Below are positions 33,295-59,000 of a stretch of DNA of 64,000 nt, piece by piece (position 1 is the stretch's first letter; every line of letters begins with the position of its first letter). The position numbers and the translations under genes were made by a program. Source of the stretch: Candidatus Kaiserbacteria bacterium (lineage in GTDB: Bacteria; Patescibacteriota; Minisyncoccia; Phycocordibacterales; UBA2100); NCBI GenBank assembly GCA_016186765.1, contig JACPLD010000005.1, forward strand, positions 13,785-77,784, in the 5' to 3' direction. Under the pieces are notes generated by a model that was given only the letters and a program-made list of their open reading frames with translations, was not told the origin of the DNA and did not search any database.

Positions 33295-33409
33295 GAGGCT
33301 AGTATAGCGCGGGTCGCGGCGCCGCAAATATCGGCGTTCGAGGACTGTTTGACCCGCCGGCTGGCGGGGAGTTCCGCAGAATGCAGATATTTGCGGCGCG
33401 AAGCAACCT

Positions 33410-34036
33410 TCAACCGGAAACAAGTTCGGCGTACACGACGAGCCGCTCGTCGTAGCTTCGCTCGCTCTGAAGCCACTTTCCGCTGCAGGTGATGAGGTTG
33501 AGGCGCGGCAAGTCGCTTCGAGAAAAGAGCACCTTGAGGGGAACAAGCGTGTACGGATACCTCTGTATCTCGACGACCCTGAAATGCAGCTCTTCCCCGT
33601 CCTGCGCTTCGACAAAGATATCGTCGCCGATCCTCATCTTGTCGAGCTCTTTGAAAACTCCCGGAAGTCCGAGAGCGTTATCGACATGCCCTGTAACGAC
33701 CGCGCTCCCCGTAAAGCCGGGGGTCGTTCCGTACTTGTACCATCCCACATCGACAAAATTGCTTGGTGCCGCCATGTTCCCCTTTGCATTTACTCCTACG
33801 TGCTGAATAAATGCATCGATTTCGAGCGACGGCACGCGAAGGCGAGCAGGTTGATCTTCGGGCAACGCTCTCTTTTCTTCCGGCACCTGCTCGATCTCGG
33901 GCACCGGGACTTCGGTATCCGGCGAGTACCAAAGTGCTCCCATGAGCGTGTCGGCAAATACGGCAAGCGCAGCGAGCGTTACGATACCCGCGCTAATCTG
34001 CAGCGCATACCTCCGAATACCTATGCTCATGGACAA
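33410..34036 (-). CDS. sortase family transpeptidase
   Basis: The 208-aa product has an N-terminal TM helix, the TGHVD motif, the catalytic LITCSG, and a downstream conserved R. Confidence 0.8.
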   Translation of the reverse strand: MSMSIGIRRYALQISAGIVTLAALAVFADTLMGALWYSPDTEVPVPEIEQVPEEKRALPEDQPARLRVPSLEIDAFIQHVGVNAKGNMAAPSNFVDVGWYKYGTTPGFTGSAVVTGHVDNALGLPGVFKELDKMRIGDDIFVEAQDGEELHFRVVEIQRYPYTLVPLKVLFSRSDLPRLNLITCSGKWLQSERSYDERLVVYAELVSG

Positions 34037-35838: not shown

Positions 35839-36018
35839 TCATATTCCTATCCCCACTACTACCCTGCCGATTAGTTTCGCCATTTTCCGTCTCTCACTCC
35901 GAACATCCATACACCATGCATGACCCTTCAACTCAATTAAAGCTTCGAGGTACTTTTCAAGCGCTTTCCGGAAAGTGTTGCTATCAGGTATACGAGTTTC
36001 TTTGTCGATCGCCCTCAT
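35839..36018 (-). CDS. possible 59-aa ORF at the edge of the island
   Basis: The product is MRAIDKETRIPDSNTFRKALEKYLEALIELKGHAWCMDVRSERRKMAKLIGRVVVGIGI. It is AT-rich and sits just below the ORF-track size cut-off. It may be a remnant or a small regulator. Confidence 0.2.
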   Translation of the reverse strand: MRAIDKETRIPDSNTFRKALEKYLEALIELKGHAWCMDVRSERRKMAKLIGRVVVGIGI

Positions 36019-36055
36019 TCCCCGATCCTTGATCGAATCGAAGAATTGTCAAGCC

Positions 36056-37165
36056 CTATAGCTTGGAGAACCCGAGATCTTGGCCAACGGGCTTGACCTT
36101 TCCATCACTAACTACAGCGACGCCTAGCTCAAGTGAGTTGATAAAATTGACATACCCTTTATCGCCAGGCTCACGAGATGGAACTAAAATTCTATACTCA
36201 TCTTTAAATTCGATGTTCTTCTCGTCCTTAAATTTTCTGATGTCGAAGTAGTTATACTCAAAAAGCTGAACTATTCCCTTGCGTGCTTGAGATCTAAAGT
36301 TCTTACTCTCTGTACTTTTTACCTCGAAAAGGAACGAGCGTTTTCCGTTATGCGCAAATAAGTCAACAAACTCATTCGAGAGAGTGTTGTAACCTTTTGC
36401 TCTAAAGACATCGATAAGTTGCTGAACTATCGAATAATGTGTTGATTCGGCCCGAGCAAGAATGTCGTTATCGCGCTTAACGAGAGAATAGGGTTTTGTG
36501 ATGATTCGCTTGTTCACTTCCTCTAAAAACCTAAGAGAAGCAGCATGACGTAATGTTTCCGTTGCATTTTTCACTTCAAAGAAGTCTGACGGCTTCTCTT
36601 CGACCGTGCCACGTGTTGAGTGTCCTGAGTAAAGATAGAGGGGCCTCTTTTTGAACAAAATCTGTTCTGCGACTTCTCGTGAGACAGAGGAGAAGCTCCC
36701 CATCTGCGGAAATCCTCGAACCTCGGATATTGGTACGCGACCAGAAACAAGCTGATCAACAAGTCTCGACGTTTGTGTATCATTACTTGGAGTTGGTGAC
36801 TCCCATATGGCAGGATCGGGCAATTCGCTAAACAAATAAATTTCGGTTAGAGGTATCAGCAATGGCCATCGGTTCTCGTTGTTCTTTATTTCATAGTGCC
36901 ACAAATTGTTGTTTTTCTTGGAGAAATGGAAGCCGACTACGCCGATTCCTATAATTCCGGAAGTGGCATTTGGAAATGCCGATGCCTGCGGCCCCGTGCT
37001 GTGAATAAAGAAAATGTCTCCTGTTTGAATTTTCTTCCATCTTTCTCGATGACTTTCCTCGAGTCCCCAGGTCATGTATTTGACCGCGGTCAACCAGTGC
37101 TCGGGTGGGCCAGTAAATCTGAAAAATTGCTTCGTATCAAGCGCAGGAGTAAAGTCTGCATTCAT
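36056..37165 (-). CDS. EVE/PUA-like domain fused to a PD-(D/E)xK nuclease domain (predicted modification-dependent, Type IV restriction-like endonuclease)
   Basis: The N-terminal 130 aa (EHWLTAVKYMTWGLEES...GDIFFIHSTG...SGIIGIGVV...RWPLLIPLTEI) fit the EVE/PUA-like fold pattern. The C-terminus has D...ExK (VDLFAHNGKRSFLFEVKS...QLFEY). The start overlaps the MazG-like gene by 4 nt (ATGA). Confidence 0.5.
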   Translation of the reverse strand: MNADFTPALDTKQFFRFTGPPEHWLTAVKYMTWGLEESHRERWKKIQTGDIFFIHSTGPQASAFPNATSGIIGIGVVGFHFSKKNNNLWHYEIKNNENRWPLLIPLTEIYLFSELPDPAIWESPTPSNDTQTSRLVDQLVSGRVPISEVRGFPQMGSFSSVSREVAEQILFKKRPLYLYSGHSTRGTVEEKPSDFFEVKNATETLRHAASLRFLEEVNKRIITKPYSLVKRDNDILARAESTHYSIVQQLIDVFRAKGYNTLSNEFVDLFAHNGKRSFLFEVKSTESKNFRSQARKGIVQLFEYNYFDIRKFKDEKNIEFKDEYRILVPSREPGDKGYVNFINSLELGVAVVSDGKVKPVGQDLGFSKL

Positions 37166-37512
37166 AGTTTGCTGTACTTTGTGTATTTCCCTTTCGACTT
37201 CTTCACCGGATATCTCTTCGCGTTTTTCTCCATCTTCTTCTCAAAAGCTTTGCCTAGATCAATGCCGAGGTCGTGGCTCATGGTAAGCACCCAGTACAAA
37301 ACATCTGCTAGCTCCTCTCCAATCTCTTTTTTGTGCGCTTTGACATATTTCTCAATCTCCGCCTTTGTCGCTTTCCACTGAAAATGTTCGAGCACTTCCG
37401 CCGCCTCAAGAGTGAGGGAAAGAGCCATATCTTTCTGGTTGTGGAATTGTTTCCAGTTTCGCGCATCCCGAAACGCGATAACTTTCTTCTGAAATTCCTT
37501 AATATCAGCCAT
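37162..37512 (-). CDS. MazG-like all-alpha nucleoside triphosphate pyrophosphohydrolase
   Basis: The 116-aa product has RDARNW...LSLTLEAAEVLEHFQW...EELADVLYWVLTMSHDLGIDL, matching the MazG/HisE-type NTP-PPase domain. Confidence 0.65.
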   Translation of the reverse strand: MADIKEFQKKVIAFRDARNWKQFHNQKDMALSLTLEAAEVLEHFQWKATKAEIEKYVKAHKKEIGEELADVLYWVLTMSHDLGIDLGKAFEKKMEKNAKRYPVKKSKGKYTKYSKL

Positions 37513-37523
37513 CGCCTAGGACT

Positions 37524-37540
37524 ATCCCACAAATCTTCAT
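37524..37540 (-). promoter_or_regulatory. 17-nt motif ATGAAGATTTGTGGGAT lying 11 nt upstream of the MazG-like start codon
   Basis: An identical 17-mer, with a similar TTTG extension, lies at the same 11-nt spacing upstream of the next gene at 38272-38288. Confidence 0.35.
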
Positions 37541-37585
37541 GTTTGACTATTTCTTGCCAATCCAATTCAAGTTGGCCATGTAATG

Positions 37586-38260
37586 TTAATGGGGTTTGCT
37601 CAGATTCTTTGCAATTTCAGTTAGACTTTCAAGAATCTTTTCAGGTATGGTATTTGCGTCTGGTTTATGTTCTGGTCTAGCGCAGAGGACTTCTATCACT
37701 TCGTCTAGGAAGCGTTCTTTTATAACAGCGTCATCCGTCGAGGTAAATATGTTGTGATAAGCCTGCGCCATTGCTTTTCGATTCGCAAAGTCAATCCGTA
37801 GTTTATTGAAATGCGAGAACTGGCGTAATGAAAATACGAGTGCAGTAATAGTCAGAAAATTAATTATGTGATATTCGATCTTGTCGTACCAAAGTTTTCC
37901 CTCTCCTAACCACAAAGACACTGCGAACGAAACTGCAACAGCGACAAAAGAAATAATTGAGTATTTGAACCACTTTGTAGCATCACTCTGATATTCTGAT
38001 TCCTGGTCTTTGTATGCTTGTGCTAGTTTCTTTAATTCTCGATCGTTAAGTTGATCTTGTTTTTCAGAAACACTTTCCTTCAATTTCTCTACCTCGGCTT
38101 TGGCCGCATCCAAGTCCGCTTGCAGCGCTGCTTTCTCAGTAGCGAAAGTGGTGTCTTTGTTTGCCAGATCCTGTACACGCTGAGTTTCCTTGAGGCTTAT
38201 TTCGCCTTTCAGCGTGCTTATTTGAGTCTCCAGGTCTGCTCTACTTGACTTTTTTGCCAT
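37586..38260 (-). CDS. coiled-coil protein with two central TM helices (SLATT-like 2TM effector candidate)
   Basis: The 224-aa product has an N-terminal ~100-aa coiled coil, TM1 YSIISFVAVAVSFAVSLWLG, TM2 IINFLTITALVFSL, and a C-terminal helical region. Confidence 0.45.
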   Translation of the reverse strand: MAKKSSRADLETQISTLKGEISLKETQRVQDLANKDTTFATEKAALQADLDAAKAEVEKLKESVSEKQDQLNDRELKKLAQAYKDQESEYQSDATKWFKYSIISFVAVAVSFAVSLWLGEGKLWYDKIEYHIINFLTITALVFSLRQFSHFNKLRIDFANRKAMAQAYHNIFTSTDDAVIKERFLDEVIEVLCARPEHKPDANTIPEKILESLTEIAKNLSKPH

Positions 38261-38271
38261 GAAATCGAATC

Positions 38272-38288
38272 ATCCCACAAATCTTCAT
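38272..38288 (-). promoter_or_regulatory. second copy of the ATGAAGATTTGTGGGAT motif, 11 nt upstream of the coiled-coil/2TM gene start
   Basis: It is an exact 17/17 match to 37524-37540 at identical spacing to the start codon. Confidence 0.35.
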
Positions 38289-38416
38289 TTTGCCTAGCCC
38301 TTCGGAGCTTTAGCGAAGTAGGGGGGAACTCAGAGTCGGTGGCGCATCACTGGCATGACGCGCAGAAAAAGAGAGCGTAGAATGAGGGGTATTAGTAGGT
38401 AACAAAACCCCTTACT

Positions 38417-38641
38417 ATGAAAAAAGCTCTTGGGGCAGGCATTGTAGGTTCTCTCCTCTTTGGGGGAATAGTACTCGCGAATTCACACAAGGTGCAGGTA
38501 TGTCACCAGACGAGCGCGGAGAACAACTCAGTCGTGCTGATCAACGTCGCTGCAAAAGCCGTCGACGCGCACCTCGCTCATGGCGACACACTCGCAACGG
38601 ATGGTAACTGCGACGGTAACGGCAGTGGCGACCCGAACTAA
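38417..38641 (+). CDS. small secreted hypothetical protein
   Basis: The 74-aa product has a signal peptide and a C-terminal CDGNGSGDPN. Confidence 0.35.
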   Translation: MKKALGAGIVGSLLFGGIVLANSHKVQVCHQTSAENNSVVLINVAAKAVDAHLAHGDTLATDGNCDGNGSGDPN

Positions 38642-41420: not shown

Positions 41421-41645
41421 ATGAACCAACAACTATTGATCGGGGCTGTTATTGGAATAATCGTCGGCGCGGTCGCAGGATACTACTTCGGCTACGACAA
41501 CGGGTGGGAAAAGGCCGTCGCATCGCTGGAATCCCAAAATACTGAAGCGGAAGCGGTGAACCCATTCGAAGACGTGACGACAAATCCTCTCAAAGACGTA
41601 AAGACGAATCCATATCAGGACGTGAAGACGAATCCGTTTGAATAG
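41421..41645 (+). CDS. small single-TM protein with tandem DV(K/T)TNP repeats
   Basis: The product is MNQQLLIGAVIGIIVGAVAGYYFGY..., with a C-terminus NPFEDVTTNPLKDVKTNPYQDVKTNPFE containing four NP-repeats. It lies directly upstream of the Cys-rich repeat protein. Confidence 0.45.
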   Translation: MNQQLLIGAVIGIIVGAVAGYYFGYDNGWEKAVASLESQNTEAEAVNPFEDVTTNPLKDVKTNPYQDVKTNPFE

Positions 41646-41681
41646 CTTCGAGCTGCAAGCTTCTAGCTTCTAGACAAATAC

Positions 41682-43568
41682 ATGAATATAAAAACACTGA
41701 TAGCAACGACTGCAGCGGGAATACTGTTCGCAGCCGGTGTTACGTTTGCGCAAGAAGAAAACGTCACCTTCCCTATTCCGGAATTAGGTGGTTGTGAATC
41801 GAAGGAAGCGTGTCACTCGTATTGCGAAGACTCCGCCAATCACGAGGCGTGCATCACCTTTGCCGAGAAGAACAACTTGATGAGCGAGGACGAGGTTGCA
41901 ATCGCGCGCAAGATCGGGAGCGCAACGGGCCCCGGAGGATGCGTGGGCCTGCAATGCAAAAATTACTGCGACGATGACGCGCATATTGATGAGTGTCTCG
42001 CCTTCGCCGAAGAGCACGGCATCATTCCACCGGAGGAGATCGAAATCGCAAAAGAGGTGCGCACAAAAGGCGGGCCGGGCGGATGCAGGAGCGAGCGGGA
42101 GTGCCGTGCGTACTGCGACGCGGAGGGACATTTTGAGGAGTGCCTCGCGTTCGCGGAGAAACACAATTTGATACCGAAAGAGGAATTGGCGATGGCCAAA
42201 AAAATGGGCGACAAGCCGGGGCCGGGGGGATGCCGGCGCGAGGCGTGCAAGACATACTGTGAAAATCCTGCGCACATGGACGAGTGCATCAACTTTGCCG
42301 TTGAGAACGGATTCATGAGCGCGGAGGAGGTGGAGATGGCCCGCAAGATGGGCAACAAAACCGGCCCCGGCGGATGCCGAGGCGAAGCGTGTCGCACCTA
42401 CTGCGACGACCCCGCACACATGGAAGAGTGCATCAATTTCGGGCTCGAAAATGGCTTGATGAGCCCGGAAGAAGCCGAACGCGCGAAAAAGTTCGGCAAC
42501 AAGCCCGGACCGGGCGGATGTCGCGGAAGGGAGTGCGAGACGTACTGCAAGGATCCGGCTCACATGGACGCGTGCATCGCCTTTGCGGAAGAAAACGGCA
42601 TGATGTCAAAGGAAGAAGCCGGGCAAGCGCGGAAGATCGGTAACAAGCCAGGACCAGGAGGCTGCCGTGGGCAAGAGTGCCGCACCTACTGCGACGATCC
42701 CGCCCACCAGGAGGCCTGCATGCAGTTCGCGATTGAAAACGGCCTTATGAGCGAAGAAGATGCCACCCGCATGAAAGAAATGGGCAACTTCGAGGGACCC
42801 GGCGGATGCAAGGGAGAGGAGTGCCGAACGTACTGCGATGACCCGGCTCACATGGAGGAGTGCCGCGCGTTTGCAGAGGAGCGCGGGTTGCGTGGTCCAC
42901 GCGGCGGACCGGGGCCGGAAGGAATGAAGGGCCCCGGTAGCTGCTCGAGTCCCGAAGAGTGCCGAGCGTACTGCGAAAGCCATCCGGACGAATGCGGAGG
43001 CGGCTTCAAACCGGGCGAAGGGCCCGACCATTCCGTCGGGCAGGAGCGTGCGATTGAGATGCGTGGATTTGAAATCCCGCCAGGACTCATGGAAGAGTGC
43101 AGACAAAATCCCGAAGCGTGCCGGCAGCGTTTCCAAGAGCAAGGCGGCATGGGAGAGGAAGCTCAGCACATGAACAAGTTCCTCGGCCGGCCGGAAGGGA
43201 AACCGTACCAGCCCGAAGGGATGATGCCACCTGAAAGCTTCCGTCCACCCGATGGACAGCAGCATCCCGAGTTTCAGCAGCAGCAGTACCAGCAAGAATA
43301 TCAGCGGCAATATGAGCAACAGTACCAACGACAGTTCGAGCAGCAGTACCAGCAACAATCGCAGCAGTTCATGCCACCGCCTGGCGATCACCCGCCCGAA
43401 GGAGGAAGCTTTGCCCCGCCGCCCGATGGAGGAGGAATGATGCAACCTCCACCCGATGGTGGAACATTCGAGCAACCTCCTCCCCCACCACCTTCTGATG
43501 CACCGCAAGCAGCAGCCTCGAGATTCGTCGCTTCAGTGCTCTCGATTTTCTTGAGTCTGCTCCAGTAG
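41682..43568 (+). CDS. secreted Cys-rich, Met-rich tandem-repeat protein (10 x ~42-aa repeats) with Q/Y-rich and P/G-rich C-terminal regions and a hydrophobic tail
   Basis: The product has a signal peptide. The repeat unit is GPGGC-x4/5-C-x2-YC-xD-x-AH-x2-EC-x2-FA-x-ENG-hMS-xEE-x3-A-x-K-h-G-xKP. Each of the 10 repeats has 4 Cys and a conserved His. The C-terminus has QQQYQQEYQRQYEQQYQRQFEQQYQQQ, a PPPD/GG-rich segment, and a final VASVLSIFLSLLQ. Confidence 0.7.
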   Translation: MNIKTLIATTAAGILFAAGVTFAQEENVTFPIPELGGCESKEACHSYCEDSANHEACITFAEKNNLMSEDEVAIARKIGSATGPGGCVGLQCKNYCDDDAHIDECLAFAEEHGIIPPEEIEIAKEVRTKGGPGGCRSERECRAYCDAEGHFEECLAFAEKHNLIPKEELAMAKKMGDKPGPGGCRREACKTYCENPAHMDECINFAVENGFMSAEEVEMARKMGNKTGPGGCRGEACRTYCDDPAHMEECINFGLENGLMSPEEAERAKKFGNKPGPGGCRGRECETYCKDPAHMDACIAFAEENGMMSKEEAGQARKIGNKPGPGGCRGQECRTYCDDPAHQEACMQFAIENGLMSEEDATRMKEMGNFEGPGGCKGEECRTYCDDPAHMEECRAFAEERGLRGPRGGPGPEGMKGPGSCSSPEECRAYCESHPDECGGGFKPGEGPDHSVGQERAIEMRGFEIPPGLMEECRQNPEACRQRFQEQGGMGEEAQHMNKFLGRPEGKPYQPEGMMPPESFRPPDGQQHPEFQQQQYQQEYQRQYEQQYQRQFEQQYQQQSQQFMPPPGDHPPEGGSFAPPPDGGGMMQPPPDGGTFEQPPPPPPSDAPQAAASRFVASVLSIFLSLLQ

Positions 43569-43573
43569 TGAGC

Positions 43574-43969
43574 TTACTTCTCCTCCAAATCAAGGCAGAC
43601 TGAATTGATGCAGTAGCGCTTCCCCGTTTTTGTCGGCCCATCGTCAAACACGTGCCCAAGATGCGAGCCGCAGCGCTTACAGGTGATCTCTACGCGGCGC
43701 ATACCGTGTGATGTGTCTTCCATGTACTCAACCGAGTCGGGAAGTGCATCATCGAAACTCGGCCAACCTGTCCCCGAGTCGAACTTTGCACTTGAGTCAA
43801 AGAGCGGGTTCCCGCATGCCGCGCATGCATACGTCCCATCTGCTTTCTCGTGAAGGTACTCTCCTGTAAACGCAGGCTCCGTCCCCTTCTCCCGCAACAC
43901 GCGGTACTGTTCGGGTGTAAGTACTTTTTTCCACTCTTTCTCGCTTTGAGGCATGGGATGTTGTGTCAT
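43574..43969 (-). CDS. msrB: peptide methionine sulfoxide reductase MsrB
   Basis: The 131-aa product has the [13 protein letters not shown] CxxC motif, GWPSF, and the catalytic [21 protein letters not shown]. Confidence 0.9.
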
Positions 43970-44034: not shown

Positions 44035-47000
44035 CTAGTACCCTGTGGTGGTTGTCGCAGTTGTCGTTGCGGTGATAGTCACACTCACGGTTGCCGTTGT
44101 TGTGCTTGTTGATGAGGTACTTGTTGCTGTTTCCGGAGCTGCTTGCGGTGAGCTCGTCGAAATCGAAGTCGGCGCCGGAGTCGGCTCGGACGCAGGCGCA
44201 GGAGCCGGTGTCGTGGTATTTGCCGCAAGCCACGCTGCGAGAACCTCGTTTAGTTTTGCGCGCGTCATGGACCCGATATTCCCGTAGCCCGCGTCACCCG
44301 GTTTTGCGATACCATGCTTCTCCTGGAATTTTTGGATCGCCTTCAACGTGAGCCGTCCGAAGAGTGTCGTCTCGCTCCCCGGCGAGCCGTCACCCGCCTC
44401 CGCGATGCGCGTGTCGGCATCGGTGTTGAGGACGACTTGCAGGAGCTTCACATCATCTCCCGACGAGCCGACCTTCAGCGCGCGGACGAAAGTGCCGACA
44501 GAAACTGCGGCGTTTCCGCTTTGGGTTTGTCCTTGCGGAGAAGCTTCGGGCGCGGCAACGCCGCTGCCGAATATTTCGCCGATCCTCGCGCGCGTCTTCG
44601 GGCCGAGCGTGCCGAAGCCTTCTTCGCCCGGTCCGGCTATGCCGTACTTTTGCTGGAACGCCTCGACTGCCGCTCTGGTAAGCGCACCGAAGTAGCCTGT
44701 TGCGTCGACGCCAAGCAGTGTCTGGAGGCGCGACACATCACTGCCACGAGAGCCTTGCGAAAGCCGAGCCGTAAACAAGGCATTTGCACTTCCCGGCGCC
44801 GGTGCAGGCAGACTCGAAGCATCTGCCGCTTGAGCTGCACCTTCGGCACCTGTGGTGAGCGAAGTCGAACCAAAGAGCTCGTTGAGCTTAGCGCGTGTCA
44901 TAGGACCGACAATGCCAAATCCTGCATCGCCCGCCTTCGCAATACCGTGCTTCATCTGGAATGATTGCACTGCCGCTCGGGTCAGCGGCCCGAAGTACCC
45001 TGTTGTATCGACACCGAGCGCTTTTTGCAGACGCGCGACGTCGGCATGCCTAGAGCCCTGCTTGAGAAGAACCGCGAAGCGAGCCCCGCCGAGCGGAGCG
45101 GCACCTGAAGCGCCCGTGGCAACGCCGAGGTTTTGGTCGACGTACGTAACAGTGCCATCAGGATAGATGATCTGTGCCTTCGCGATTGTCGCGGTCGGCT
45201 GCGCGATACTGCCTCCTCCTCCACCACCACCGCCTCCACCGCCACTGCTGCCACTGCTTCCGCTACTGCCACTACTGCCGGAGCTGCCCGACGATTGCGC
45301 GGGCGCGATCGGCGCGAAATCGGAGAAGTGAGAAACGTTCGCGGTGAGCGTGTTATTCGTCGTATCCACGGTCGTCGAGAGCATGTCGTAGGCTTGCGTC
45401 GCGTCGTTCCACACACCAAGCTGCAGGTCACTCTCCGAAGTCCCGCTCGGGATGTCGGCCTCTGTGTACGGAACAACAACCGTGACCTCATCATTCAAGG
45501 TTTTTACGGGCTGTCCCGAGGAATCGACCGCGCTGATCGTGACGGCGTTCTTCGAGAGGACGCTTCCGTTCGCAATAGCTGGAACGGCGGTGTTTGCCTG
45601 CGTCTTTACCGTGCCGGCGTTCGAGCCCGTGCCCAAGGCATTAGCCGGAATCGTGAGCTTGAAGGTGCTGCCGATGTCGGAATTGGTGACGAAGCCGCCT
45701 GCCGTGGGCGTAATCGTCTCCTGTCTCTCGGCCGTCAGCGTGAATCCAGATATTGCCGAGAGTGTGATGTTCTGATTGCTCTGAGATGCGCTCGTGGTAT
45801 CTGCGGTCGTGTTCCCCGTATAGCCGATCGAGCGCGCGGTGACCGTCCACGAACCGGGCGAGACACTGAGAGAATAGGCGCCCGCAGAATCGGTTTGTGC
45901 GACCGCGAATCCCCCGGAGCCGTTCGTCGCATCGACGAACGCGCCCGAGACACCGGTGCCGGAGAGCGAGACGGTACCGGAGATCGTCCGTGAGGCGGCT
46001 TTCAGAGATACGCCGGAGGGCGTTGTGTCGCCGGTGACGGTAACGCTCAAAGGAGCGAGCAGAATGTAGCCGGGTTTATCGGCACGAATCTGGTAGCTCC
46101 CCTTCGGCACGCGGATCGAATACTGACCCTCGCTATTGGTCTGACCGCCGATACTGATGACATTCGTTTGCCCGGTCGGCGTTCCCGTCAGAGAAACGAA
46201 CGCGTTATCTATTGGCGCGTCGGCTACCACGCCGCCCGTGATGGTGTAGAGCTGCGGCGCCGTGTAGGTAATGGTCTGCGTCGAATTGACGCTCGCGGTC
46301 GAGCCGATAGGACCGAATGCAGGATGCCCTGCGCGGATCGTGTAGGTGCCGGGCGAGAGCGTGAGCGTGTAGGTGGCGTTCGCGCCTGAACTCGTGCTCT
46401 CGCTCGTGCCGTTGCCGCGGCCAGAAGAAGTGCGCGCGTCCACATAGGCCCCCGTTATTGGATTCGTGCCGTCGGTGAGTTTGACGGTCACGGTGATGGG
46501 GGCCGCAAGCGCGCAGTTGTTGCTGTAGCTTGTCGTATCCGCGGTAGAGGTGACGTCGATCGGGGTCGAATCGCCGATTCCCGGGAAGAAGCAGGTGAGA
46601 GTGTAACTTCCGGCAGGTAGTTTCAGTGTGTACACGCCGTCTGCATCAGAGACACCCATGTTGCCGCCGTTCGCTCCTTCGGCATGTACCATGACGCCCT
46701 GCACCGCCGTTCCCGCCTTTGTGGTCGTTCCCGTGACCGTACCGAGCGAGAGATTTTGAGCAGAGAAGTCCTGTCCCGAGAGCGAAGAGCCCGAAACCGT
46801 CACGGTCTTTGCTCCCAGTTTGCCGAATCCGGGTGCGTATGCCTCGATGCGCCAGACGCCGTTTGTGACGTAGAGCGTGTACGCGCCGTTTGCATCCGTC
46901 GGCCCGCCGACGAAGTTCTGCTGTCCGCCACCCACTGGCGTCGTATCTGCGGCAGAATTTACCTTTCGGCCTCCGACGCCCGAGTACGAAATTGCATTAC

Positions 47001-50000
47001 CATTATTGTCTTTTACGGTGCCGGAGATAGTGAGTGTGGAAGCGGTGCCAAGCTTGAAGGAAAGGGTGGCAGGAGTATTTGCGCCGCTTGAGGGAACCGT
47101 AATCTGCTGGTCGGGAACGCTCGGCATGCCGGGCTTGAAGACACCGACGAGGTAGGTACCTGCGACTACATTAATGGAGAAAGCGCCGGAGGTATTGGTC
47201 TGTCCGCCGGACCCGAAGCCAAGATCAGAGGTGGAGCCGCCGGAGGAAGAGGTATTCGAGATCGGACGTGCAAAGACTCCTGCGTTTGATACAGCATTGC
47301 CGGCAGAATCCGTAACAGTGCCCGTGATGGTTTTATCAGCCGAGGAGAGCGTGAAGTTCACGCCCGTGACATTCGTCGTGGTTGCGATCACGGTTAGGTT
47401 CGGCGGCGGCATGAAGGTGAACGTCGGTGGTGGTGGAGGCGCACCACCGGGAATGAAGTGCGAATCGGGCATTCCGGGTCCGACACCCACGCTATAGGTT
47501 GTGCTCGTCGAAATACGCAGCGAATATGCGACAGCACTTCCGGTCATGGTCTTCGTGGTCTTCGAGAAACCCATGGAGGAAGCCGCGAAGATATCGACAG
47601 AGGTCCCGTTCGGGCCCGTGACGGCGCCACTAAGCGAGATAGTGCTGCCGCCACCCGTCACGATGATGTTCTTCGTGAGGTTTGTCGCGGAAACCGTAAA
47701 TGGCTGCGGTACAGAATTGTAGGTGACGGTCGAGGAGGCGGACGCGAGAGATCCGGGATCGATGCCGACCATGTAGTCACCGTCCGAGAGCTGCGTGAAC
47801 GTGGCAACACCAGTTGAGTTAGTCGTCGTTGAGTTACCTCCGGCCGCGGGCGAGAAGAGGAAGACTTTCACCGCGGCAATGCCCTCACCTGCGTTCACGG
47901 TGCTGTTCGCGTTCGCATCGTTGAAGACGTTTACCGTGAGAGTGCGGCTGCCCGCTTGCCCGAGGAAGAAGGGTGAGGTAGTTTTTGTCTCAAGGATCGC
48001 GCGGTTATTCGCGGCCGTGTCGCGCGTCTTGATGTCGCCTGTGTAGCCCGCGCTTGAGGGCACCGTCGAGTTGATGATACCGGTAAGCTCGATACAGATG
48101 AAGGCGTTTGCGCCTGTCGCGGTACCCGCCGTCGTGATCGTGACGGTGCCCGCGTCGACATTTGCGGAAGCAGTCGCGATCGTGGGGACTCCCGCAAACT
48201 GGTTGCCGTTGATGTCGGCATTACAAAGCGAGCTGGCGGCAGCGGTCGTAGAGGCGCGCGTGACGTCAAAACCAGAGGGGAAGGTAACGATGATCTGGCC
48301 GCCAAGCGGTATCGAAGTTGCGGCGAGGAAGTTGAGGCGATAGTCGGAGATTGCGCCCGCGATGCGCGTCATCGGCATGAGCTGTGTCGGGTTCATTCCT
48401 TGCATGCTCTGGTCTATCGTGCCGGTTCCGGGGCCGAGCTGGCCGCCGGTTGTCGAAGAATTTTGCACGGTGCCGACCGCGATGTTGCCTGCCGGCGTGC
48501 CTGACGTCGAGATGCCGTTCCCCGCCAAGTCCTGCACGGGCGTTGCCACCGTCACTTTGAATTGACTGCCGCTCGAGAGCGAAAGCCCGCTGATACGTGC
48601 GGTTTTCGTCTGACCGTCGTAGGTAACGGTCTTCCCACCGAGGCCAATGGAGGTGCCGATTGGGCTCTCGAGGGTGTAGTTGGCGATGTTGTCCGCCGCA
48701 TTCGGTCCGCCACCGACTCGCATGGTCTCTGAAAATGTGATGGCGATGCCGAAATTGTCGGCGCTCGCGAACTGGACGGAGGGCGCCGATGTGTCAGCGA
48801 TCGCGGTCGTCGTCGCGAACGTCGTTGACGTCGCAGTAAGGCGATTGCCCGAAAGATCGGCGGGGCCGGTGAGTCCGGCACCGACAGTGAACTTGTATCC
48901 GGTACTTGCGGAAAGTGCGGTCGAAGGAGCAAACGCGGCCGAGCGACTCTGTTGGTTGTACGTGACGTTGCCCGTGACAGCCGTGTCGCCCACCTGCGTG
49001 TAGAGCTTCAGCGTCGTGCTGCTCACCGTGGAGGGGTCCATGTCCTCGGAAAAGCCTGTGGTGAATACCTGCCCGAGTGAGATATTGGTCGAGTTGTTTG
49101 CGGGGTTCACGCCGAGCACCGTGGGCGCCGTCGAATCAGTGCCACTACTCGTGCGGAAGTAGAGACGGTACTCCTGCGGCAGCGAGATATTGTTGGTACT
49201 CTGTGCGGTCGTTAGGACTTGCACCACATAAGCGGAGTTGGCACCGAGGTTCGAGATCGACGTGATCGTGAGAGTATTGGTGCTCGTGGCATAGGAATTC
49301 ACTGCGCTTATCGCGCCGCCCGGCTGGCCGTTCACATCGGTCATGAGCTTCACGACCGCCGTATTCGTGACTGCATTTTCTCCGCCATCGCTCTTCATCG
49401 CGACCGAGAAGGTCAGCTTGATAGGCGCATTGATGGGGTGGTTTTGCGAGCCTCCCTGCGGCTGGCTGCTCTGTACGTAGGGAGGTGAGATGTTGGTTCC
49501 GCCCGTCCCGCCAGTCGTGAATGAAAGTGTCTGGTTCGAGGCGAGGGGATTGCCTGCCGAATCCTTGACGCCGGTCGTCGCGGTCACCACGTAGGTAGAG
49601 GACGTCGCGAGGTCCGTCGACGCGTTGTCCAAGCGAAGCGCTGTCGAGGTCGCGCCCGTCGCGCCGTTCGAGACAAGATGGAATTCGTACGCGCCGGTAT
49701 TCGAGCCACCCGCGGTGACCTTCCCGAAGAGCATGTCGCCCAGTGAGAAGGCAGTCGCATCCTGTGCGCCTGAGTCAACCGCACCATTTGCCGATGTCGT
49801 GATCTTTGCGAGAACCGAATTTTGCAAGAATATCGGCCGAGTAGCGGCACTATCGAGACGAAGTGCCGAGCTCGTGCCGGGATTGGCACCGGAGCCGAGC
49901 ACGCCGTTTATCGTTTCGCCGATCGTGACAAGGTGCCAATCGTAGACACCGGTATTGTCTGCACCGCTCACGATCGCCGCAAACACGAGATCGCCCGCGT

Positions 50001-51363
50001 TGAACGTGGTCGTCGCGGTGAGCGAACCGGAAGCGTCGAGTGTCGAGGTCGCTGACGGTAGTATCTTCGAGAGCGTCGTCGAAGCCGGGAAGGTAGGCGC
50101 GGCGTTCGCGAGGTCGAAACGCAGGTTCGAGCTATTGATGCTTGCACCTGTTTTTACGATGTGCCAGTCGTACTGGGTGGTCACCTGGTTCGTACTTGCG
50201 TTCGTGACCACGAGGTCGCCCACACCCAGCGGGCTCCCCGTACTCGTCGTCGTCGCAAAGAAGGGCGTGGTGAATTTCGTGATTTGGGAGGGGTTGAAGA
50301 GCGCATTGCCGTTGATGGCGAACGTTCCCGAGGTGAGAACGCTGTTCGTGACAACGCCCACGACAGGCGGGAACGTGCCAAACTGAAGATATACGATGTC
50401 ACCATAGGCAGGGGTCGTGTAGGCGCCCTGCGGCGTGATAGCGTTCGTGCTCGATACGGAGAAAAATCCGGTAGAGGCGGTCGTTACCTTTGCAAACTTG
50501 CTGCCGGCGGCGTAGGTGGGAGGGCTTGAGGCAACGATGTCGAAACCATCGGGAAAGGGGCGGACCGCCGCGCCCACGGCGGAGCCATTCTGGGTAAAGG
50601 TGATGTTGGTCGAATTCAGTGTAGATTGGTCGAGATTCTCGCTAAAGCCCATGTGGATGAAGGTCGAAACGGGTACGTTCGTGGAGCCGTTTGCAGGGCC
50701 CGTCGCGTTTGTGTTCACCGTGGGCGCTATCGTATCGACGGTTATAACGTCCGTTTGAAACAAGGTTGGGCCGGGAGCGACCGCGCCGTTCCAGCCAATG
50801 CCGCCCGGAATCATTTGCGCCTTCAGGGCGTGTCCATTCACTGCCGTGGGAGAGCTCGTGATGACAACAAAATAGTCGTTGCCGGCGTTCGCCCCCGCGT
50901 TGTCGGTCGGAACTGTCTCGGCAGTAGCAAAGGTAAGGGTCGTTGTCGCGTTCAGGCCATTTGCACTTGAGACCCATCCGGGCGCACTCAAAAGGGGTAT
51001 CACGTCGTCGGCGGCGTCGAAGCTTCCATTCGTTCCGCCCGCGGCATCATCGCGGTAGATTGCGATTCCCGTGGAGGTCGCGGCCCCAAGTGTCGCAATA
51101 TCAGTCGTTGTGCCGGAAGCAGAAAAGATCAATCCAATGGTCGTCGAGGCGAGCGTCTCCGAATCTGAAACGAGGTTGAATCCGATGACTGCGGTCGCGA
51201 CAGAAGAAGCCTTGATGGTTTGATTAGGGCTGGTGAGCGAGGCGGCAGCGTTCGTCGCAACCGCTGCATGCACGTAGAGTGCGTATCCAAAGAGAGAAAC
51301 GAAAAGCACGAGAACTGAAATAGCAAAAACGACGCCGTGGCGGCGCACGAGTGAAAGACCCAT
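44035..51363 (-). CDS. giant (2442 aa) cell-surface protein: N-terminal anchor, many Ig-like/beta-rich repeats, SGSSG/poly-Gly linker, four C-terminal PG_binding_1 domains, and a Thr/Ser/Pro-rich tail
   Basis: The product has an N-terminal TM helix (VVFAISVLVLFVSLFGYALYV) and about 2000 aa of T/S/G/A/V-rich repeats. The linker is SSGSSGSSGSSGSSGGGGGGGGGGG. Repeated motifs such as LQKALGVDTTGYFGPLTRAAVQSFQMKHGIAKAGDAGFGIVGPMTRAKL are typical of PG_binding_1 domains. Confidence 0.8.
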   Translation of the reverse strand: MGLSLVRRHGVVFAISVLVLFVSLFGYALYVHAAVATNAAASLTSPNQTIKASSVATAVIGFNLVSDSETLASTTIGLIFSASGTTTDIATLGAATSTGIAIYRDDAAGGTNGSFDAADDVIPLLSAPGWVSSANGLNATTTLTFATAETVPTDNAGANAGNDYFVVITSSPTAVNGHALKAQMIPGGIGWNGAVAPGPTLFQTDVITVDTIAPTVNTNATGPANGSTNVPVSTFIHMGFSENLDQSTLNSTNITFTQNGSAVGAAVRPFPDGFDIVASSPPTYAAGSKFAKVTTASTGFFSVSSTNAITPQGAYTTPAYGDIVYLQFGTFPPVVGVVTNSVLTSGTFAINGNALFNPSQITKFTTPFFATTTSTGSPLGVGDLVVTNASTNQVTTQYDWHIVKTGASINSSNLRFDLANAAPTFPASTTLSKILPSATSTLDASGSLTATTTFNAGDLVFAAIVSGADNTGVYDWHLVTIGETINGVLGSGANPGTSSALRLDSAATRPIFLQNSVLAKITTSANGAVDSGAQDATAFSLGDMLFGKVTAGGSNTGAYEFHLVSNGATGATSTALRLDNASTDLATSSTYVVTATTGVKDSAGNPLASNQTLSFTTGGTGGTNISPPYVQSSQPQGGSQNHPINAPIKLTFSVAMKSDGGENAVTNTAVVKLMTDVNGQPGGAISAVNSYATSTNTLTITSISNLGANSAYVVQVLTTAQSTNNISLPQEYRLYFRTSSGTDSTAPTVLGVNPANNSTNISLGQVFTTGFSEDMDPSTVSSTTLKLYTQVGDTAVTGNVTYNQQSRSAAFAPSTALSASTGYKFTVGAGLTGPADLSGNRLTATSTTFATTTAIADTSAPSVQFASADNFGIAITFSETMRVGGGPNAADNIANYTLESPIGTSIGLGGKTVTYDGQTKTARISGLSLSSGSQFKVTVATPVQDLAGNGISTSGTPAGNIAVGTVQNSSTTGGQLGPGTGTIDQSMQGMNPTQLMPMTRIAGAISDYRLNFLAATSIPLGGQIIVTFPSGFDVTRASTTAAASSLCNADINGNQFAGVPTIATASANVDAGTVTITTAGTATGANAFICIELTGIINSTVPSSAGYTGDIKTRDTAANNRAILETKTTSPFFLGQAGSRTLTVNVFNDANANSTVNAGEGIAAVKVFLFSPAAGGNSTTTNSTGVATFTQLSDGDYMVGIDPGSLASASSTVTYNSVPQPFTVSATNLTKNIIVTGGGSTISLSGAVTGPNGTSVDIFAASSMGFSKTTKTMTGSAVAYSLRISTSTTYSVGVGPGMPDSHFIPGGAPPPPPTFTFMPPPNLTVIATTTNVTGVNFTLSSADKTITGTVTDSAGNAVSNAGVFARPISNTSSSGGSTSDLGFGSGGQTNTSGAFSINVVAGTYLVGVFKPGMPSVPDQQITVPSSGANTPATLSFKLGTASTLTISGTVKDNNGNAISYSGVGGRKVNSAADTTPVGGGQQNFVGGPTDANGAYTLYVTNGVWRIEAYAPGFGKLGAKTVTVSGSSLSGQDFSAQNLSLGTVTGTTTKAGTAVQGVMVHAEGANGGNMGVSDADGVYTLKLPAGSYTLTCFFPGIGDSTPIDVTSTADTTSYSNNCALAAPITVTVKLTDGTNPITGAYVDARTSSGRGNGTSESTSSGANATYTLTLSPGTYTIRAGHPAFGPIGSTASVNSTQTITYTAPQLYTITGGVVADAPIDNAFVSLTGTPTGQTNVISIGGQTNSEGQYSIRVPKGSYQIRADKPGYILLAPLSVTVTGDTTPSGVSLKAASRTISGTVSLSGTGVSGAFVDATNGSGGFAVAQTDSAGAYSLSVSPGSWTVTARSIGYTGNTTADTTSASQSNQNITLSAISGFTLTAERQETITPTAGGFVTNSDIGSTFKLTIPANALGTGSNAGTVKTQANTAVPAIANGSVLSKNAVTISAVDSSGQPVKTLNDEVTVVVPYTEADIPSGTSESDLQLGVWNDATQAYDMLSTTVDTTNNTLTANVSHFSDFAPIAPAQSSGSSGSSGSSGSSGSSGGGGGGGGGGGSIAQPTATIAKAQIIYPDGTVTYVDQNLGVATGASGAAPLGGARFAVLLKQGSRHADVARLQKALGVDTTGYFGPLTRAAVQSFQMKHGIAKAGDAGFGIVGPMTRAKLNELFGSTSLTTGAEGAAQAADASSLPAPAPGSANALFTARLSQGSRGSDVSRLQTLLGVDATGYFGALTRAAVEAFQQKYGIAGPGEEGFGTLGPKTRARIGEIFGSGVAAPEASPQGQTQSGNAAVSVGTFVRALKVGSSGDDVKLLQVVLNTDADTRIAEAGDGSPGSETTLFGRLTLKAIQKFQEKHGIAKPGDAGYGNIGSMTRAKLNEVLAAWLAANTTTPAPAPASEPTPAPTSISTSSPQAAPETATSTSSTSTTTATVSVTITATTTATTTTGY

Positions 51364-58705: not shown

Positions 58706-58714
58706 AGGGCCCGG

Positions 58715-58963: not shown

Positions 58964-59000
58964 ATGTTTTAGTTAGTAATAAGCTGATAATCCACTCAAT

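What the first reader, a model, noticed from the sequence alone, without database searches (positions are those of the whole stretch)
41421..43969. Secreted protein of ten tandem four-Cys/one-His repeats, unusually Met-rich, convergent with msrB and preceded by a small NP-repeat membrane protein
ORF 41682-43568 encodes a signal peptide followed by ten ~42-aa modules of the form GPGGC-x4-C-x2-YC-xDxAH-x2-EC-x2-FA-xENGhMSxEE...KhGxKP, 40 Cys in all. Methionines occur at fixed positions in each repeat and again in the tail (GGMMQPP, GMMPPES). After the repeats come a prion-like Q/Y/E-rich tract, a PPPDGG-rich tract and a hydrophobic C-terminal tail. Its stop is 5 nt from the stop of a convergent msrB (Met-R-sulfoxide reductase). 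The gene just upstream (41421-41645) is a single-TM peptide with DVKTNP x4 repeats. The Cys spacing (C-x4/5-C-x3-C-x8-C plus His) suggests a disulfide-stabilised or metal-binding mini-domain that I do not recognise. I speculate the Met-rich composition next to msrB makes it an oxidant-scavenging or Msr-maintained surface protein.
Basis: partly seen in the sequence, partly recalled or inferred. Interest (0 to 1): 0.65.

Follow-up and report, generated by a model that had tools for sequence, protein, structure and literature searches.

The report
Cys-repeat rod protein with NPF partner
This is a real exported protein built from nine small, four-cysteine helical modules, and across Patescibacteria it is always encoded with a tiny membrane protein ending in NPF repeats. 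This is an undescribed two-gene envelope cassette, and its msrB neighbour is largely incidental.

Summary

- **No known relative.** The module matches no Pfam, NCBIfam or PDB entry by sequence or by fold. It nevertheless defines a large Patescibacteria-only family of 1,748 clusters at 50% identity.
- **Predicted structure.** AlphaFold predicts it confidently (pLDDT 89) as a rod of three-helix units. Each unit carries four invariant Cys, most likely forming two disulfides.
- **Conserved partner.** The strongest finding is the upstream gene (41421-41645). It encodes a single TM helix and a tail of 3-5 NPx motifs ending in NPF. It precedes the Cys gene in 77 of 77 testable loci, at a median gap of 4 nt.
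- **msr linkage is not conserved.** msr genes lie near the cassette in only 3 of 56 lineage clusters, which is a marginal enrichment. Met-richness is not a family trait (median 2.2%). The window's MsrB has no export signal.

I interpret the pair as a two-component envelope scaffold in which the NPF tail tethers the rod. That mechanism is inferred, not shown. Interest is moderate: the domain and cassette are new, but the function is unknown.

The parts
41421..41645 (+). Partner gene: 74-aa bitopic membrane protein. It has a short N-terminus, one TM helix, a linker and a C-terminal tail of four NPx motifs ending ...KTNPFE.
   Evidence: ORF; called as a 74-aa gene on the query's own public contig. 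A homologous gene lies immediately upstream of the Cys gene in 77 of 77 loci with enough upstream DNA. The alignment shows invariant P48, N63, P64, N71, P72, F73.
41433..41495 (+). TM helix of the partner (aa 5-25, LLIGAVIGIIVGAVAGYYFGY), with a Gly-zipper and a C-terminal aromatic belt.
   Evidence: Weak Gly-zipper Pfam hit. The aromatic belt G-Y-[FY]-[FY]-W is conserved in the partner alignment.
41559..41642 (+). NPx-repeat tail of the partner (aa 47-74: NPFEDVTTNPLKDVKTNPYQDVKTNPFE). It contains a 24-nt x 2.8 DNA tandem repeat at 41569-41635.
   Evidence: Every partner ends in NPF plus 0-2 residues and carries 3-5 NPx motifs (mode 4).
41646..41681 (+). 36-nt spacer between the partner's stop and the Cys-gene start. 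The two genes are in the same frame and on the same strand.
   Evidence: Family-wide the median spacer is 4 nt, and 43 of 62 are 10 nt or less, which suggests an operon and translational coupling.
41682..43568 (+). Cys-module protein gene (628 aa plus stop).
   Evidence: There are 2,293+ homologs and 1,748 clusters at 50% identity containing the module.
41682..41750 (+). Sec-type signal peptide (aa 1-23, predicted cleavage TFA|QEE).
   Evidence: Read from the sequence. No signal-peptide predictor was available, so the cleavage site is inferred.
41769..41795 (+). Conserved mature N-terminal motif FPIPELGGC (family pattern [FY]P[IV]x[EQ]Lxx-C).
   Evidence: Present in 217 of 242 family proteins.
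41787..42890 (+). Eight full 48-49-aa modules (aa 36-403). Consensus: xGPGGC[RK]Gx(x)EC[RK]xYC[ED][DN]Px[HN]x[ED]EC[LIVF]xFAExxG[LF][IM]xxEEAxRA[RK]K.
   Evidence: HMM domains with i-E 1e-16 to 1e-26 and the consensus. AF2 gives three helices per module, pLDDT 89 and pTM 0.65, and pLDDT 87.5 for two modules.
42927..42995 (+). Ninth, shortened 4-Cys module (aa 416-438, GPGSCSSPEECRAYCESHPDEC).
   Evidence: Weak HMM hit, E 0.007. The regex finds a C-x5-C-x3-C-x6-C pattern. AF2 places a helix at model residues 401-410.
43098..43121 (+). Two-Cys remnant (aa 473-480, CRQNPEAC).
   Evidence: Cys positions.
43278..43367 (+). Q/Y/E-rich low-complexity tract (12-nt and 24-nt DNA repeats).
   Evidence: Present in close Kaiserbacteria-type relatives but not family-wide.
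43368..43517 (+). Pro-rich (PPPDGG-type) spacer.
   Evidence: Sequence. P-rich tails are common across the family.
43521..43565 (+). C-terminal 15-aa hydrophobic/amphipathic segment (RFVASVLSIFLSLLQ).
   Evidence: A similar ...[FL][FL]A[ST][IV]L..F..LF[RQ] ending is seen in roughly three quarters of the 61 sequences inspected. It is too short for a classical TM anchor, and no LPXTG motif is present.
43574..43969 (-). msrB (131 aa, SelR domain only, no signal peptide). It is an adjacent, convergent neighbour and not part of the conserved cassette.
   Evidence: Adjacency occurs only in the window's close relatives (L001, L033, L045) and in two other, differently arranged lineages.

Best explanation
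Genes 41421-41645 and 41682-43568 form a conserved, probably co-translated two-gene envelope cassette that is specific to Patescibacteria (CPR).

**The large gene.** Its product is exported by Sec. It folds into a fairly rigid rod of about nine 48-aa three-helix modules.
- Each module is locked by four invariant cysteines, most likely as two disulfides. From the helix-hairpin register I infer the pairing C1-C3 and C2-C4.
- A disordered Q/Y/E- and Pro-rich spacer follows the modules, then a short amphipathic C-terminus.

**The small gene.** Its product sits in the membrane by one N-terminal helix. It exposes a short tail with 3-5 NP[FLY] motifs that always ends in NPF.

**Proposed mechanism.** I propose that the NPF tail is the membrane-proximal tether or ligand for the helical modules. 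Together the two proteins would build a structural scaffold or stalk in the wall zone or on the cell surface. In some lineages this scaffold also displays Kazal or lectin domains.

**Shown versus inferred.**
- Shown here: that the gene is real, the family, the module anatomy, the confident helical model, the invariance of the four Cys, and the obligate gene pairing.
- Inferred: export and topology, disulfides rather than metal, NPF-module binding, and a scaffold function.

The msrB neighbour is a lineage-specific juxtaposition and not part of the mechanism.
For: - **Gene and family.** There are 2,293+ homologs, all from Patescibacteria and all unnamed. An exhaustive profile search finds 1,748 clusters, 906 of them at E<=1e-30, and the top-listed members carry 5-12 modules each.
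- **Module.** 952 of 953 complete HMM-detected modules keep all four Cys. F27, A28 and Y14 are conserved. AF2 gives pLDDT 89.1 and pTM 0.65 for nine modules, and 87.5 and 0.64 for two. C1 lies in a loop, C2 and C3 are spaced i/i+4 in helix 1, and C4 lies in helix 2.
- **Extracytoplasmic, oxidising context.** The protein has a signal peptide. About 20% of relatives carry Kazal domains, and one carries a ConA-like lectin domain. CPR genomes are enriched in MdbA-like oxidoreductase and VKOR (bioRxiv 10.1101/335083).
- **Against a metal site.** There is no CxxC knuckle. The His position is H in about 62% and N in about 33% of modules, and it sits at the N-terminal cap of helix 2.
- **Partner.** It is present in 77 of 77 testable loci. 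The reciprocal test gave 3 of 3. The median spacer is 4 nt, and the C-terminus is always NPF plus 0-2 aa. NPx count correlates with module count (rho 0.46, p 5e-4). The tail is the most conserved part of the partner.
Against: - There is no experimental or structural evidence that the NPF tail binds the modules.
- No natural fusions exist, and I could not run a complex prediction.
- The partner's topology is ambiguous by charge, because both TM flanks are often basic.
- Disulfide versus metal is not resolved. The Cys are never lost in pairs, and I had no access to model coordinates.
- The rho=0.46 correlation is not corrected for phylogeny.
- The window holds no Dsb or VKOR gene.
- Some relatives lack the P-rich tail and C-terminal motif (for example P0088), so anchoring by that end is not universal.
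Confidence: 0.5

Rival explanations
1. Secreted host-interaction or defence factor. In this reading the modules themselves are the active units, for example protease-resistant binding or inhibitor modules, or an adhesin stalk used in the epibiotic lifestyle. The partner would serve only for export or retention.
For: - Kazal protease-inhibitor domains and a ConA-like lectin domain are fused C-terminally in relatives.
- Proteases (S41/PDZ, HtrA, M10) or type IV pilus genes neighbour the cassette in some loci.
- Weak 'defensin-like' Pfam hits occur at the N-terminus of two relatives.
Against: - The neighbours are heterogeneous and none is conserved.
- The defensin-like hits are marginal and span the signal peptide.
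- The query has no Kazal or lectin domain.
- Strong, uniform conservation of every module across thousands of sequences fits a structural role better than a fast-evolving host-interaction factor would.
Confidence: 0.2
2. Metal-binding array. Each module would use its four Cys (plus or minus His) to coordinate Zn, Cu or Fe, and the protein would act as an extracytoplasmic metal buffer, store or redox relay.
For: - Four invariant Cys per module plus a frequent His.
- One relative has a weak Cu-binding_MopE motif, located outside the modules.
- A multicopper-oxidase-like gene lies elsewhere in the window.
- These organisms often live in anoxic groundwater, where disulfides are harder to maintain.
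Against: - His is replaced by Asn in about a third of modules.
- There are no CxxC knuckles. The Cys sit on alpha-helices (i/i+4) and in a hairpin register typical of disulfide-stapled helical hairpins.
- The Sec signal, rather than a Tat signal, argues against a cofactor inserted in the cytoplasm.
- The modules co-occur with classical disulfide domains (Kazal) in the same chains.
- The MopE hit is below the Pfam threshold.
Confidence: 0.12
3. The Met-rich exported protein would be a sacrificial oxidant sink, or a surface protein kept reduced by methionine sulfoxide reductase, and this would explain the msrB neighbour.
For: - The query is 4.5% Met, about twice the family median.
- msr genes occur within 2 kb of the cassette in three differently arranged groups. 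None occurs in the 449 kb sampled at 2-10 kb (P about 0.02).
- In L040 the neighbour is an MsrA-MsrB fusion with an N-terminal membrane anchor, next to a family member with 5.1% Met.
- Precedent exists in MrpX/YedY (PMC4436054).
Against: - Linkage is seen in only 3 of 56 clusters (2 of 37 at 60% identity). It is absent from close relatives of the query.
- Over the 0.62 Mb sampled, three msr loci compare with about 0.6-1.2 expected, which is marginal.
- The msr-linked L029 protein has only 1.5-1.7% Met, and Met content does not differ between linked and unlinked clusters (p=0.19).
- The window's MsrB and L029's MsrA and MsrB have no export signal. The window has no MsrA and no exported Msr.
- msrB is convergent with the Cys gene, so it is not co-transcribed.
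- MrpX is 20% Met and co-operonic with an exported reductase.
- The Met positions are not conserved.
Confidence: 0.07

Closest known systems
Disulfide-stapled helical hairpins (CHCH domain with twin CX9C/CX3C; plant alpha-hairpinins with CX3C...CX3C)
   Same: Both are small helix-turn-helix units whose helices are pinned by two disulfides, using Cys spaced about one helical turn apart. Here C2-x3-C3 lies in helix 1 and C4 in helix 2.
   Different: - The pattern here is C-x4/5-C-x3-C-x8-C, with C1 in a preceding loop. It is not a twin CXnC.
- There is a third helix, and the units form tandem arrays of 5-13 in an exported bacterial protein.
- There is no sequence or fold match.
- The resemblance comes from general knowledge and was not detected by any search.
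Gram-positive rod-like surface proteins built from tandem three-helix modules, with a Pro-rich wall-spanning segment (protein A / GA / FIVAR-type architectures)
   Same: A signal peptide, an array of three-helix modules of about 45-60 aa, and then a Pro-rich low-complexity spacer and a hydrophobic C-terminus.
   Different: - There is no LPXTG sortase motif and no long TM segment with a basic tail.
- The modules are Cys-stapled, whereas those families are Cys-free.
- There is no Pfam match.
- An obligate small NPF-repeat partner is present, which those systems lack.
Eukaryotic NPF motif / EH-domain recognition
   Same: The partner carries repeated Asn-Pro-Phe-type short linear motifs in a disordered tail. 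Pfam's only weak hit to the tail is the Rabosyn-5 'NPF' repeat model (E 0.013).
   Different: - EH domains are EF-hand pairs without Cys, and nothing EH-like was detected in the Cys protein.
- The setting here is extracytoplasmic and bacterial.
- Binding has not been tested.
MrpX / YedY(MsrP) sacrificial methionine system (PMC4436054) and exported MsrAB systems of streptococci and Neisseria
   Same: An exported protein with above-average Met lies next to a methionine sulfoxide reductase gene. In one relative (L040) the reductase appears to be membrane-anchored.
   Different: - MrpX is small, 20% Met and co-operonic with a Tat-exported reductase.
- Here Met is 4.5%, MsrB is cytoplasmic and convergent, and linkage occurs in only 3 of 56 lineages.
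Kazal-type inhibitor domains (PF00050/PF07648)
   Same: They are disulfide-rich extracellular modules that occur in the same polypeptides in about 20% of relatives.
   Different: Kazal domains are C-terminal add-ons in some relatives. They are absent from the query, and the repeat module itself is not Kazal.

Membership tests
Any curated protein family (Pfam-A, NCBIfam) | Significant profile-HMM match | tested here: not met
   The 628-aa protein has 0 families in Pfam at E<=0.1 and 0 in NCBIfam at E<=1. Long relatives show only add-on Kazal or Laminin_G_3 domains.
Any solved structure | Sequence, profile or fold similarity to a PDB chain | tested here: not met
CHCH / twin-CXnC helical hairpin | Two CX9C (or CX3C) motifs, one on each helix of a hairpin | tested here: not met
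   The pattern is C-x4/5-C-x3-C-x8-C. There is only one CX3C, and C1 lies in a loop.
MrpX-type sacrificial Met-rich protein with Msr | Very high Met content (about 20%) in a small exported peptide | tested here: not met
   Met is 4.5% in a 628-aa protein, and the family median is 2.2%. MrpX values come from PMC4436054.
MrpX-type sacrificial Met-rich protein with Msr | Reductase exported to the same compartment and co-transcribed | tested here: not met
   The window's MsrB is 131 aa, has no signal peptide and is convergent. There is no other Msr in the window. The exception among relatives is the L040 MsrAB, which has an N-terminal anchor.
MrpX-type sacrificial Met-rich protein with Msr | Conserved gene linkage across homologs | tested here: not met
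   msr genes lie within the flanks in 3 of 56 clusters at 70% identity, or 2 of 37 at 60%.
LPXTG sortase-anchored surface protein | C-terminal LPXTG motif, TM helix and basic tail | tested here: not met
   The C-terminus is ...AASRFVASVLSIFLSLLQ. It has no LPXTG, only 15 hydrophobic or amphipathic residues and no basic tail.
Structural Zn/Cys4 or Fe-S domain | Conserved ligand set with CxxC knuckles or a ferredoxin-type spacing; metal present | tested here: inconclusive
   The four Cys are invariant, but there is no CxxC. His swaps with Asn (about 62% / 33%), and the Cys sit on helices. Metal content cannot be tested here.
NPF-motif / EH-domain system | EH (EF-hand pair) domain that binds NPF peptides | tested here: not met
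   NPF-type motifs are present in the partner, but no EH or EF-hand match is found in the Cys protein. Binding cannot be tested with these tools.
New 'GPGGC four-Cys module + NPF partner' cassette (defined here) | Tandem modules of about 48 aa with 4 invariant Cys, plus an immediately upstream TM/NPF-tail gene | tested here: met
   The query has 8+1 modules and the partner 36 nt upstream. The pattern holds in 77 of 77 testable loci.

The most novel reading that the evidence does not exclude
The cassette could be a previously unrecognised, Patescibacteria-wide two-component envelope system. A new disulfide-stapled three-helix repeat domain would recognise NPF-type short linear motifs on a dedicated membrane tether, as a bacterial, extracytoplasmic analogue of eukaryotic NPF-EH recognition. 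Multivalent rod-to-tether binding (3-5 motifs against 5-13 modules) would build a defined layer or spacer of the unusual CPR cell envelope. In some clades a Met-rich variant would double as an oxidant buffer serviced by an exported MsrAB.
Probability: 0.2. Interest if true: 0.8.

Novelty: new variant of a known kind. Interest (0 to 1): 0.55.

Why it matters
Patescibacteria (CPR) make up a large share of bacterial diversity, and their envelope and attachment biology is mostly built from proteins of unknown function.
- This cassette is widespread: 1,748 clusters at 50% identity carry the module, and every one of the ~250 family members I inspected carries several.
- It is strictly paired with a partner gene, confidently foldable and completely unannotated. 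That makes it a tractable entry point.
- It offers a new domain family to define, with no current Pfam or PDB counterpart.
- It offers a testable protein-peptide interaction between the NPF tail and the helical modules.
- It is a candidate structural component of the CPR envelope.

The work also shows that the eye-catching msrB adjacency is mostly incidental, which stops a wrong functional label from spreading.

Tried and rejected
- **Locus finding with alignments.** I solved this with the single protein and with a tight 8-sequence module alignment.
- **In-cis docking.** I tried to model the NPF tail onto the modules by translating 41541-42647 as one chain. The two genes share a frame, but the two stop codons blocked it. 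No complex prediction was therefore possible.
- **Partner search.** A single-sequence search with the partner found only 12 hits. A profile search found 121 hits, all small and stand-alone.
- **Rosetta-stone fusions.** I looked for fusions of partner and Cys protein and found none.
- **Paired Cys loss.** I looked for loss of Cys in pairs to infer disulfide connectivity. The Cys are essentially never lost.
- **DNA-level signals.** There is no DNA-level tandem repeat for the modules, no sigma-70-like promoter hit, and no clean intergenic terminator between the convergent genes.
- **General redox enrichment.** AhpC/redoxin, glutaredoxin, TrxR-like, DsbA and DoxX genes appear sporadically near the cassette in 7 of 56 clusters. 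That is roughly my rough estimate of chance, and the genes are heterogeneous and cytoplasmic, so I did not adopt this idea.
- **Defensin-like and MopE hits.** The hits in relatives are marginal or lie outside the module, so I rejected them.
- **Literature.** Searches found no description of the GPGGC module or of the NPF partner in CPR.


Full report

Yes. ORF 41682-43568(+) encodes 628 aa.
- It starts with a Sec-type signal peptide (MNIKTLIATTAAGILFAAGVTFA|QEE).
- It continues with tandem Cys modules, then a Q/Y/E-rich tract (12-nt DNA repeat at 43278-43357) and a Pro-rich PPPDGG tract.
- It ends in 15 hydrophobic residues.

The stop lies 5 nt from the end of a convergent msrB (43574-43969). 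That gene matches SelR at 3e-52 and TIGR00357 at 3e-54. The upstream ORF 41421-41645 encodes 74 aa with one TM helix and four NPx motifs, part of which is a 24-nt x 2.8 DNA repeat.

- There are 38 Cys, not 40.
- The period is 48-49 aa, not about 42.
- There are nine 4-Cys units, not ten. Eight are full (HMM i-E 1e-16 to 1e-26) and one is shortened (aa 416-438, E 0.007). A 2-Cys remnant follows.
- Met is 4.5%.

TRF does not detect the modules at DNA level. They are therefore ancient repeats kept similar by selection on the protein.

**2. What is the module?**

It matches nothing curated or solved.
- Pfam and NCBIfam give no hit.
- PDB gives no sequence or profile hit.
- Foldseek finds nothing for a 9-module model (best E 1.1) or a 2-module model (best E 2.6, TM<=0.35).
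- BFVD, the library of predicted viral protein structures, gives nothing.

The module nevertheless defines a big family.
- There are 2,293+ hits in the word-indexed database. All named ones are Patescibacteria: Kaiser-, Wildermuth-, Azam-, Sung-, Kuenen-, Niyogi-, Jorgensenbacteria and Paceibacterota. All are annotated 'hypothetical'.
- The exhaustive profile search finds 1,748 clusters at 50% identity, 906 of them at E<=1e-30.

The consensus over more than 800 modules is xGPGGC[RK]Gx(x)EC[RK]xYC[ED][DN]Px[HN]x[ED]EC[LIVF]xFAExxG[LF][IM]xxEEAxRA[RK]K.
- With an HMM that does not force the Cys, 952 of 953 complete modules keep all four.
- The 'His' position is H in about 62%, N in about 33% and R in about 3% of modules.

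AlphaFold2 predicts the array confidently.
- It gives pLDDT 89.1 and pTM 0.65 for aa 24-445, and 87.5 and 0.64 for two modules.
- Each module has three helices. C1 sits in the loop after the GPGG turn, C2 and C3 are spaced i/i+4 in short helix 1, and the [DN]-P-x-[HN] box caps helix 2, which carries C4 and the conserved F-A. Helix 3 carries the EEAxRAKK stretch.
- A pTM of 0.65 over nine modules suggests that the modules pack into a continuous rod rather than beads on a string. This is an inference, because I had no access to the coordinates.

**3. Disulfides or metal?**

Several points favour two disulfides per module (inferred, not shown).
- The protein has a Sec signal, not a Tat signal.
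- There are no CxxC knuckles, and the Cys sit on helices in the register typical of stapled hairpins. C2 and C4 are roughly equidistant from the turn, which leaves C1-C3 as the other pair.
- His swaps freely with Asn.
- Classical disulfide domains (Kazal) lie in the same chains in about 20% of relatives, and a ConA-like lectin domain lies in one.
- CPR genomes are reported to be enriched in MdbA-like oxidoreductase and VKOR for secreted proteins (bioRxiv 10.1101/335083).

The window itself has no Dsb or VKOR gene, and metal binding is not excluded.

**4. The conserved partner**

In the first 27 loci, a small gene lay directly upstream on the same strand in 26. The exception was at a contig edge. 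After the metagenome scan, the tally is 77 of 77 loci with at least about 440 nt of upstream sequence. All 6 'missing' cases have less than 240 nt.

As a reciprocal test, I took three partner hits found by a partner profile. Each has a Cys-module gene immediately downstream.

The partner family has the following anatomy.
- A short, often basic N-terminus (MKK...).
- One TM helix ending in a G-Y-[FY]-[FY]-W belt.
- A variable linker.
- 3-5 NP[FLY] motifs (mode 4), always ending in NPF plus 0-2 residues.
- The tail residues are the only invariant ones.

Over 63 non-redundant pairs, the median spacer is 4 nt and 43 of 62 spacers are 10 nt or less. NPx number correlates with module number (rho 0.46, p 5e-4, not corrected for phylogeny). 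No fusions of the two proteins exist.

Other family constants are the mature N-terminal motif [FY]P[IV]xEL..C, present in 217 of 242 proteins. In about three quarters of the sequences inspected there is also a short amphipathic C-terminus ...[FL][FL]A[ST][IV]L..F..LF[RQ].

**5. The msrB question**

My first samples suggested that there is no linkage.
- msrB was adjacent only in L001, a 69%-identical syntenic relative, among 17 genome loci.
- It was absent near P0030, P0088, P0024 and P0093. It was absent near the Met-rich P0032 and P0036, and near the 58%-identical P0001.

Later data made the picture less clean, and I report that.
- L029, an independent lineage, has msrB...msrA directly upstream on the same strand, amid AhpC, CDGSH, EncFtn and rhodanese genes. 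Its Cys protein is 38% identical to the query.
- L039/L040 have a fused MsrA-MsrB of 382 aa with an N-terminal membrane anchor. It lies 1.1-1.9 kb upstream on the other strand.

At lineage level, msr genes lie near the cassette in 3 of 56 clusters at 70% identity, or 2 of 37 at 60%.
- All of these occurrences lie within 2 kb. None is found in the 449 kb sampled at 2-10 kb. With 173 kb sampled at 0-2 kb, this gives P=(0.278)^3, about 0.02.
- Over the whole 0.62 Mb sampled, three msr loci compare with roughly 0.6-1.2 expected, which is marginal.

- Met content is not a family trait (median 2.2%, IQR 1.2-3.6; the query's 4.5% is reached by 19% of members).
- The query's recurrent Met positions are generic positions in the family.
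- The msr-linked clusters have 5.6, 1.5 and 5.1% Met, against a median of 2.8% for the others (p=0.19).
- The window's MsrB, and L029's MsrA and MsrB, lack any export signal.
- The window has no MsrA and no exported Msr.
- msrB is convergent with the Cys gene.
- The precedent, MrpX, is 20% Met and co-operonic with a Tat-exported reductase (PMC4436054).

My verdict is that linkage is sporadic, and that a weak lineage-specific association is possible but unproven.

**6. Mechanism I commit to (confidence about 0.5 overall)**

I interpret the cassette as a two-component envelope scaffold.
- The rod is exported and disulfide-stapled.
- The small protein is a type-II-like membrane tether. Its extracytoplasmic NPF tail binds the helical modules multivalently.
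- The P-rich spacer and the amphipathic end give reach and a second membrane or wall contact.
- In some clades, Kazal or lectin domains are displayed on the scaffold.

The shown steps are the family, the module anatomy, the confident helical model, the Cys invariance and the obligate, tightly spaced gene pair. The inferred steps are the topology, the disulfides, NPF-module binding and the structural role.

**7. Comparison and novelty**

The protein works like known disulfide-stapled helical hairpins (CHCH, alpha-hairpinins). It also resembles Gram-positive rods of tandem three-helix modules with a Pro-rich spacer. It fails every membership test for these families:
- The Cys pattern is different.
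- There is no LPXTG motif.
- There is no profile or fold match.

The NPF tail recalls eukaryotic NPF-EH recognition, but no EH-like domain is present.

I found no paper that describes the module or the partner. I rate it a new variant of a known general kind, namely exported, disulfide-stabilised tandem-repeat envelope proteins. Its domain family and its obligate partner are undescribed. There is about a 0.2 chance that it represents a truly new envelope system.

**8. Context**

The window is an ordinary Kaiserbacteria-like chromosomal stretch. It carries LepA, MurJ, RNR, GroEL/ES, RNase J, Ddl, GlmS, YkuD and PG-binding proteins. A 2,442-aa Big_5 / CarboxypepD_reg / PG_binding surface protein lies next to msrB.

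Noticed in passing
L040:7372-8520 (-) and L040:7004-7372 (-): A relative's locus encodes a fused MsrA-MsrB (382 aa) with an N-terminal hydrophobic anchor, so it is probably extracytoplasmic. Directly downstream is a 122-aa membrane protein with a 'CC' motif (SLCCVAPIVV), which could be an electron-transfer partner. Both lie about 1-2 kb from a cassette member with 5.1% Met.
   Followed up: partly
L029:2391-8945: An oxidative-stress island surrounds the cassette in one lineage: AhpC/redoxin, zf-CDGSH, msrB, His_Phos_1, msrA, then the cassette, then EncFtn/rubrerythrin-like and rhodanese genes. The Cys protein there has only about 1.5-1.7% Met.
   Followed up: partly
window 44035-51363 (-): A giant 2,442-aa predicted surface protein lies just beyond msrB. 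It has 4 Big_5 Ig-like domains, 5 CarboxypepD_reg domains, an SdrD_B-like domain and C-terminal PG_binding_1 repeats.
   Followed up: partly
window 36001-38300: GC content drops to 0.43 against about 0.53-0.59 elsewhere. The region contains a 224-aa coiled-coil plus TM protein (37586-38260) and ORFs with no Pfam match (for example 36056-37165). It may be foreign DNA.
   Followed up: no
window 38417-38641 (+): A small 74-aa predicted secreted protein with Cys and His residues (…CHQTS…HLAHGD…NCDGNG…) has no Pfam match. It lies next to DUF1905 and ArsR/MarR-type HTH genes.
   Followed up: no
window 57698-60629 (-): A DUF3179 protein (3e-82) lies near a 407-aa protein with multicopper-oxidase domains (Cu-oxidase_3 and Cu-oxidase_2). 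This is unusual oxidative or copper chemistry for a small CPR genome.
   Followed up: no
window 32674-33615 (-): A GGDEF diguanylate cyclase (3.6e-38) is present in this CPR-type genome fragment.
   Followed up: no
L018:10717-14575: In one Parcubacteria relative, type IV pilus genes lie directly downstream of the cassette on the same strand: a PilB-like T2SSE, a PilC-like T2SSF and an N_methyl pilin. A PilT-like ATPase lies nearby in L020. This arrangement is not seen in most loci.
   Followed up: partly
P0141 (1,431 aa), P0134 (1,555 aa), P0172 (1,062 aa), P0030/P0057: Long family members append further Cys-rich, S/T/G-rich repeats, Kazal domains or a Laminin_G_3 (ConA-like lectin) domain after the module array. 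The array may therefore serve as a stalk for variable C-terminal cargo.
   Followed up: partly
L028:5267-7228, L030:5272-6714: A divergent subfamily alternates the GPGGC modules with variant units that start 'GIKPP[AS]C' and with degenerate 2-Cys units (…ACDEYCGTHMEEC…). This shows that the module can diversify within one protein.
   Followed up: no
L011 (contig CAZRZS010000005.1): One cassette-bearing contig is labelled 'uncultured Gammaproteobacteria'. Several others are labelled 'Candidatus Saccharibacteria', although their best protein matches are Parcubacteria or Kaiserbacteria. These are probably binning or labelling artefacts.
   Followed up: no
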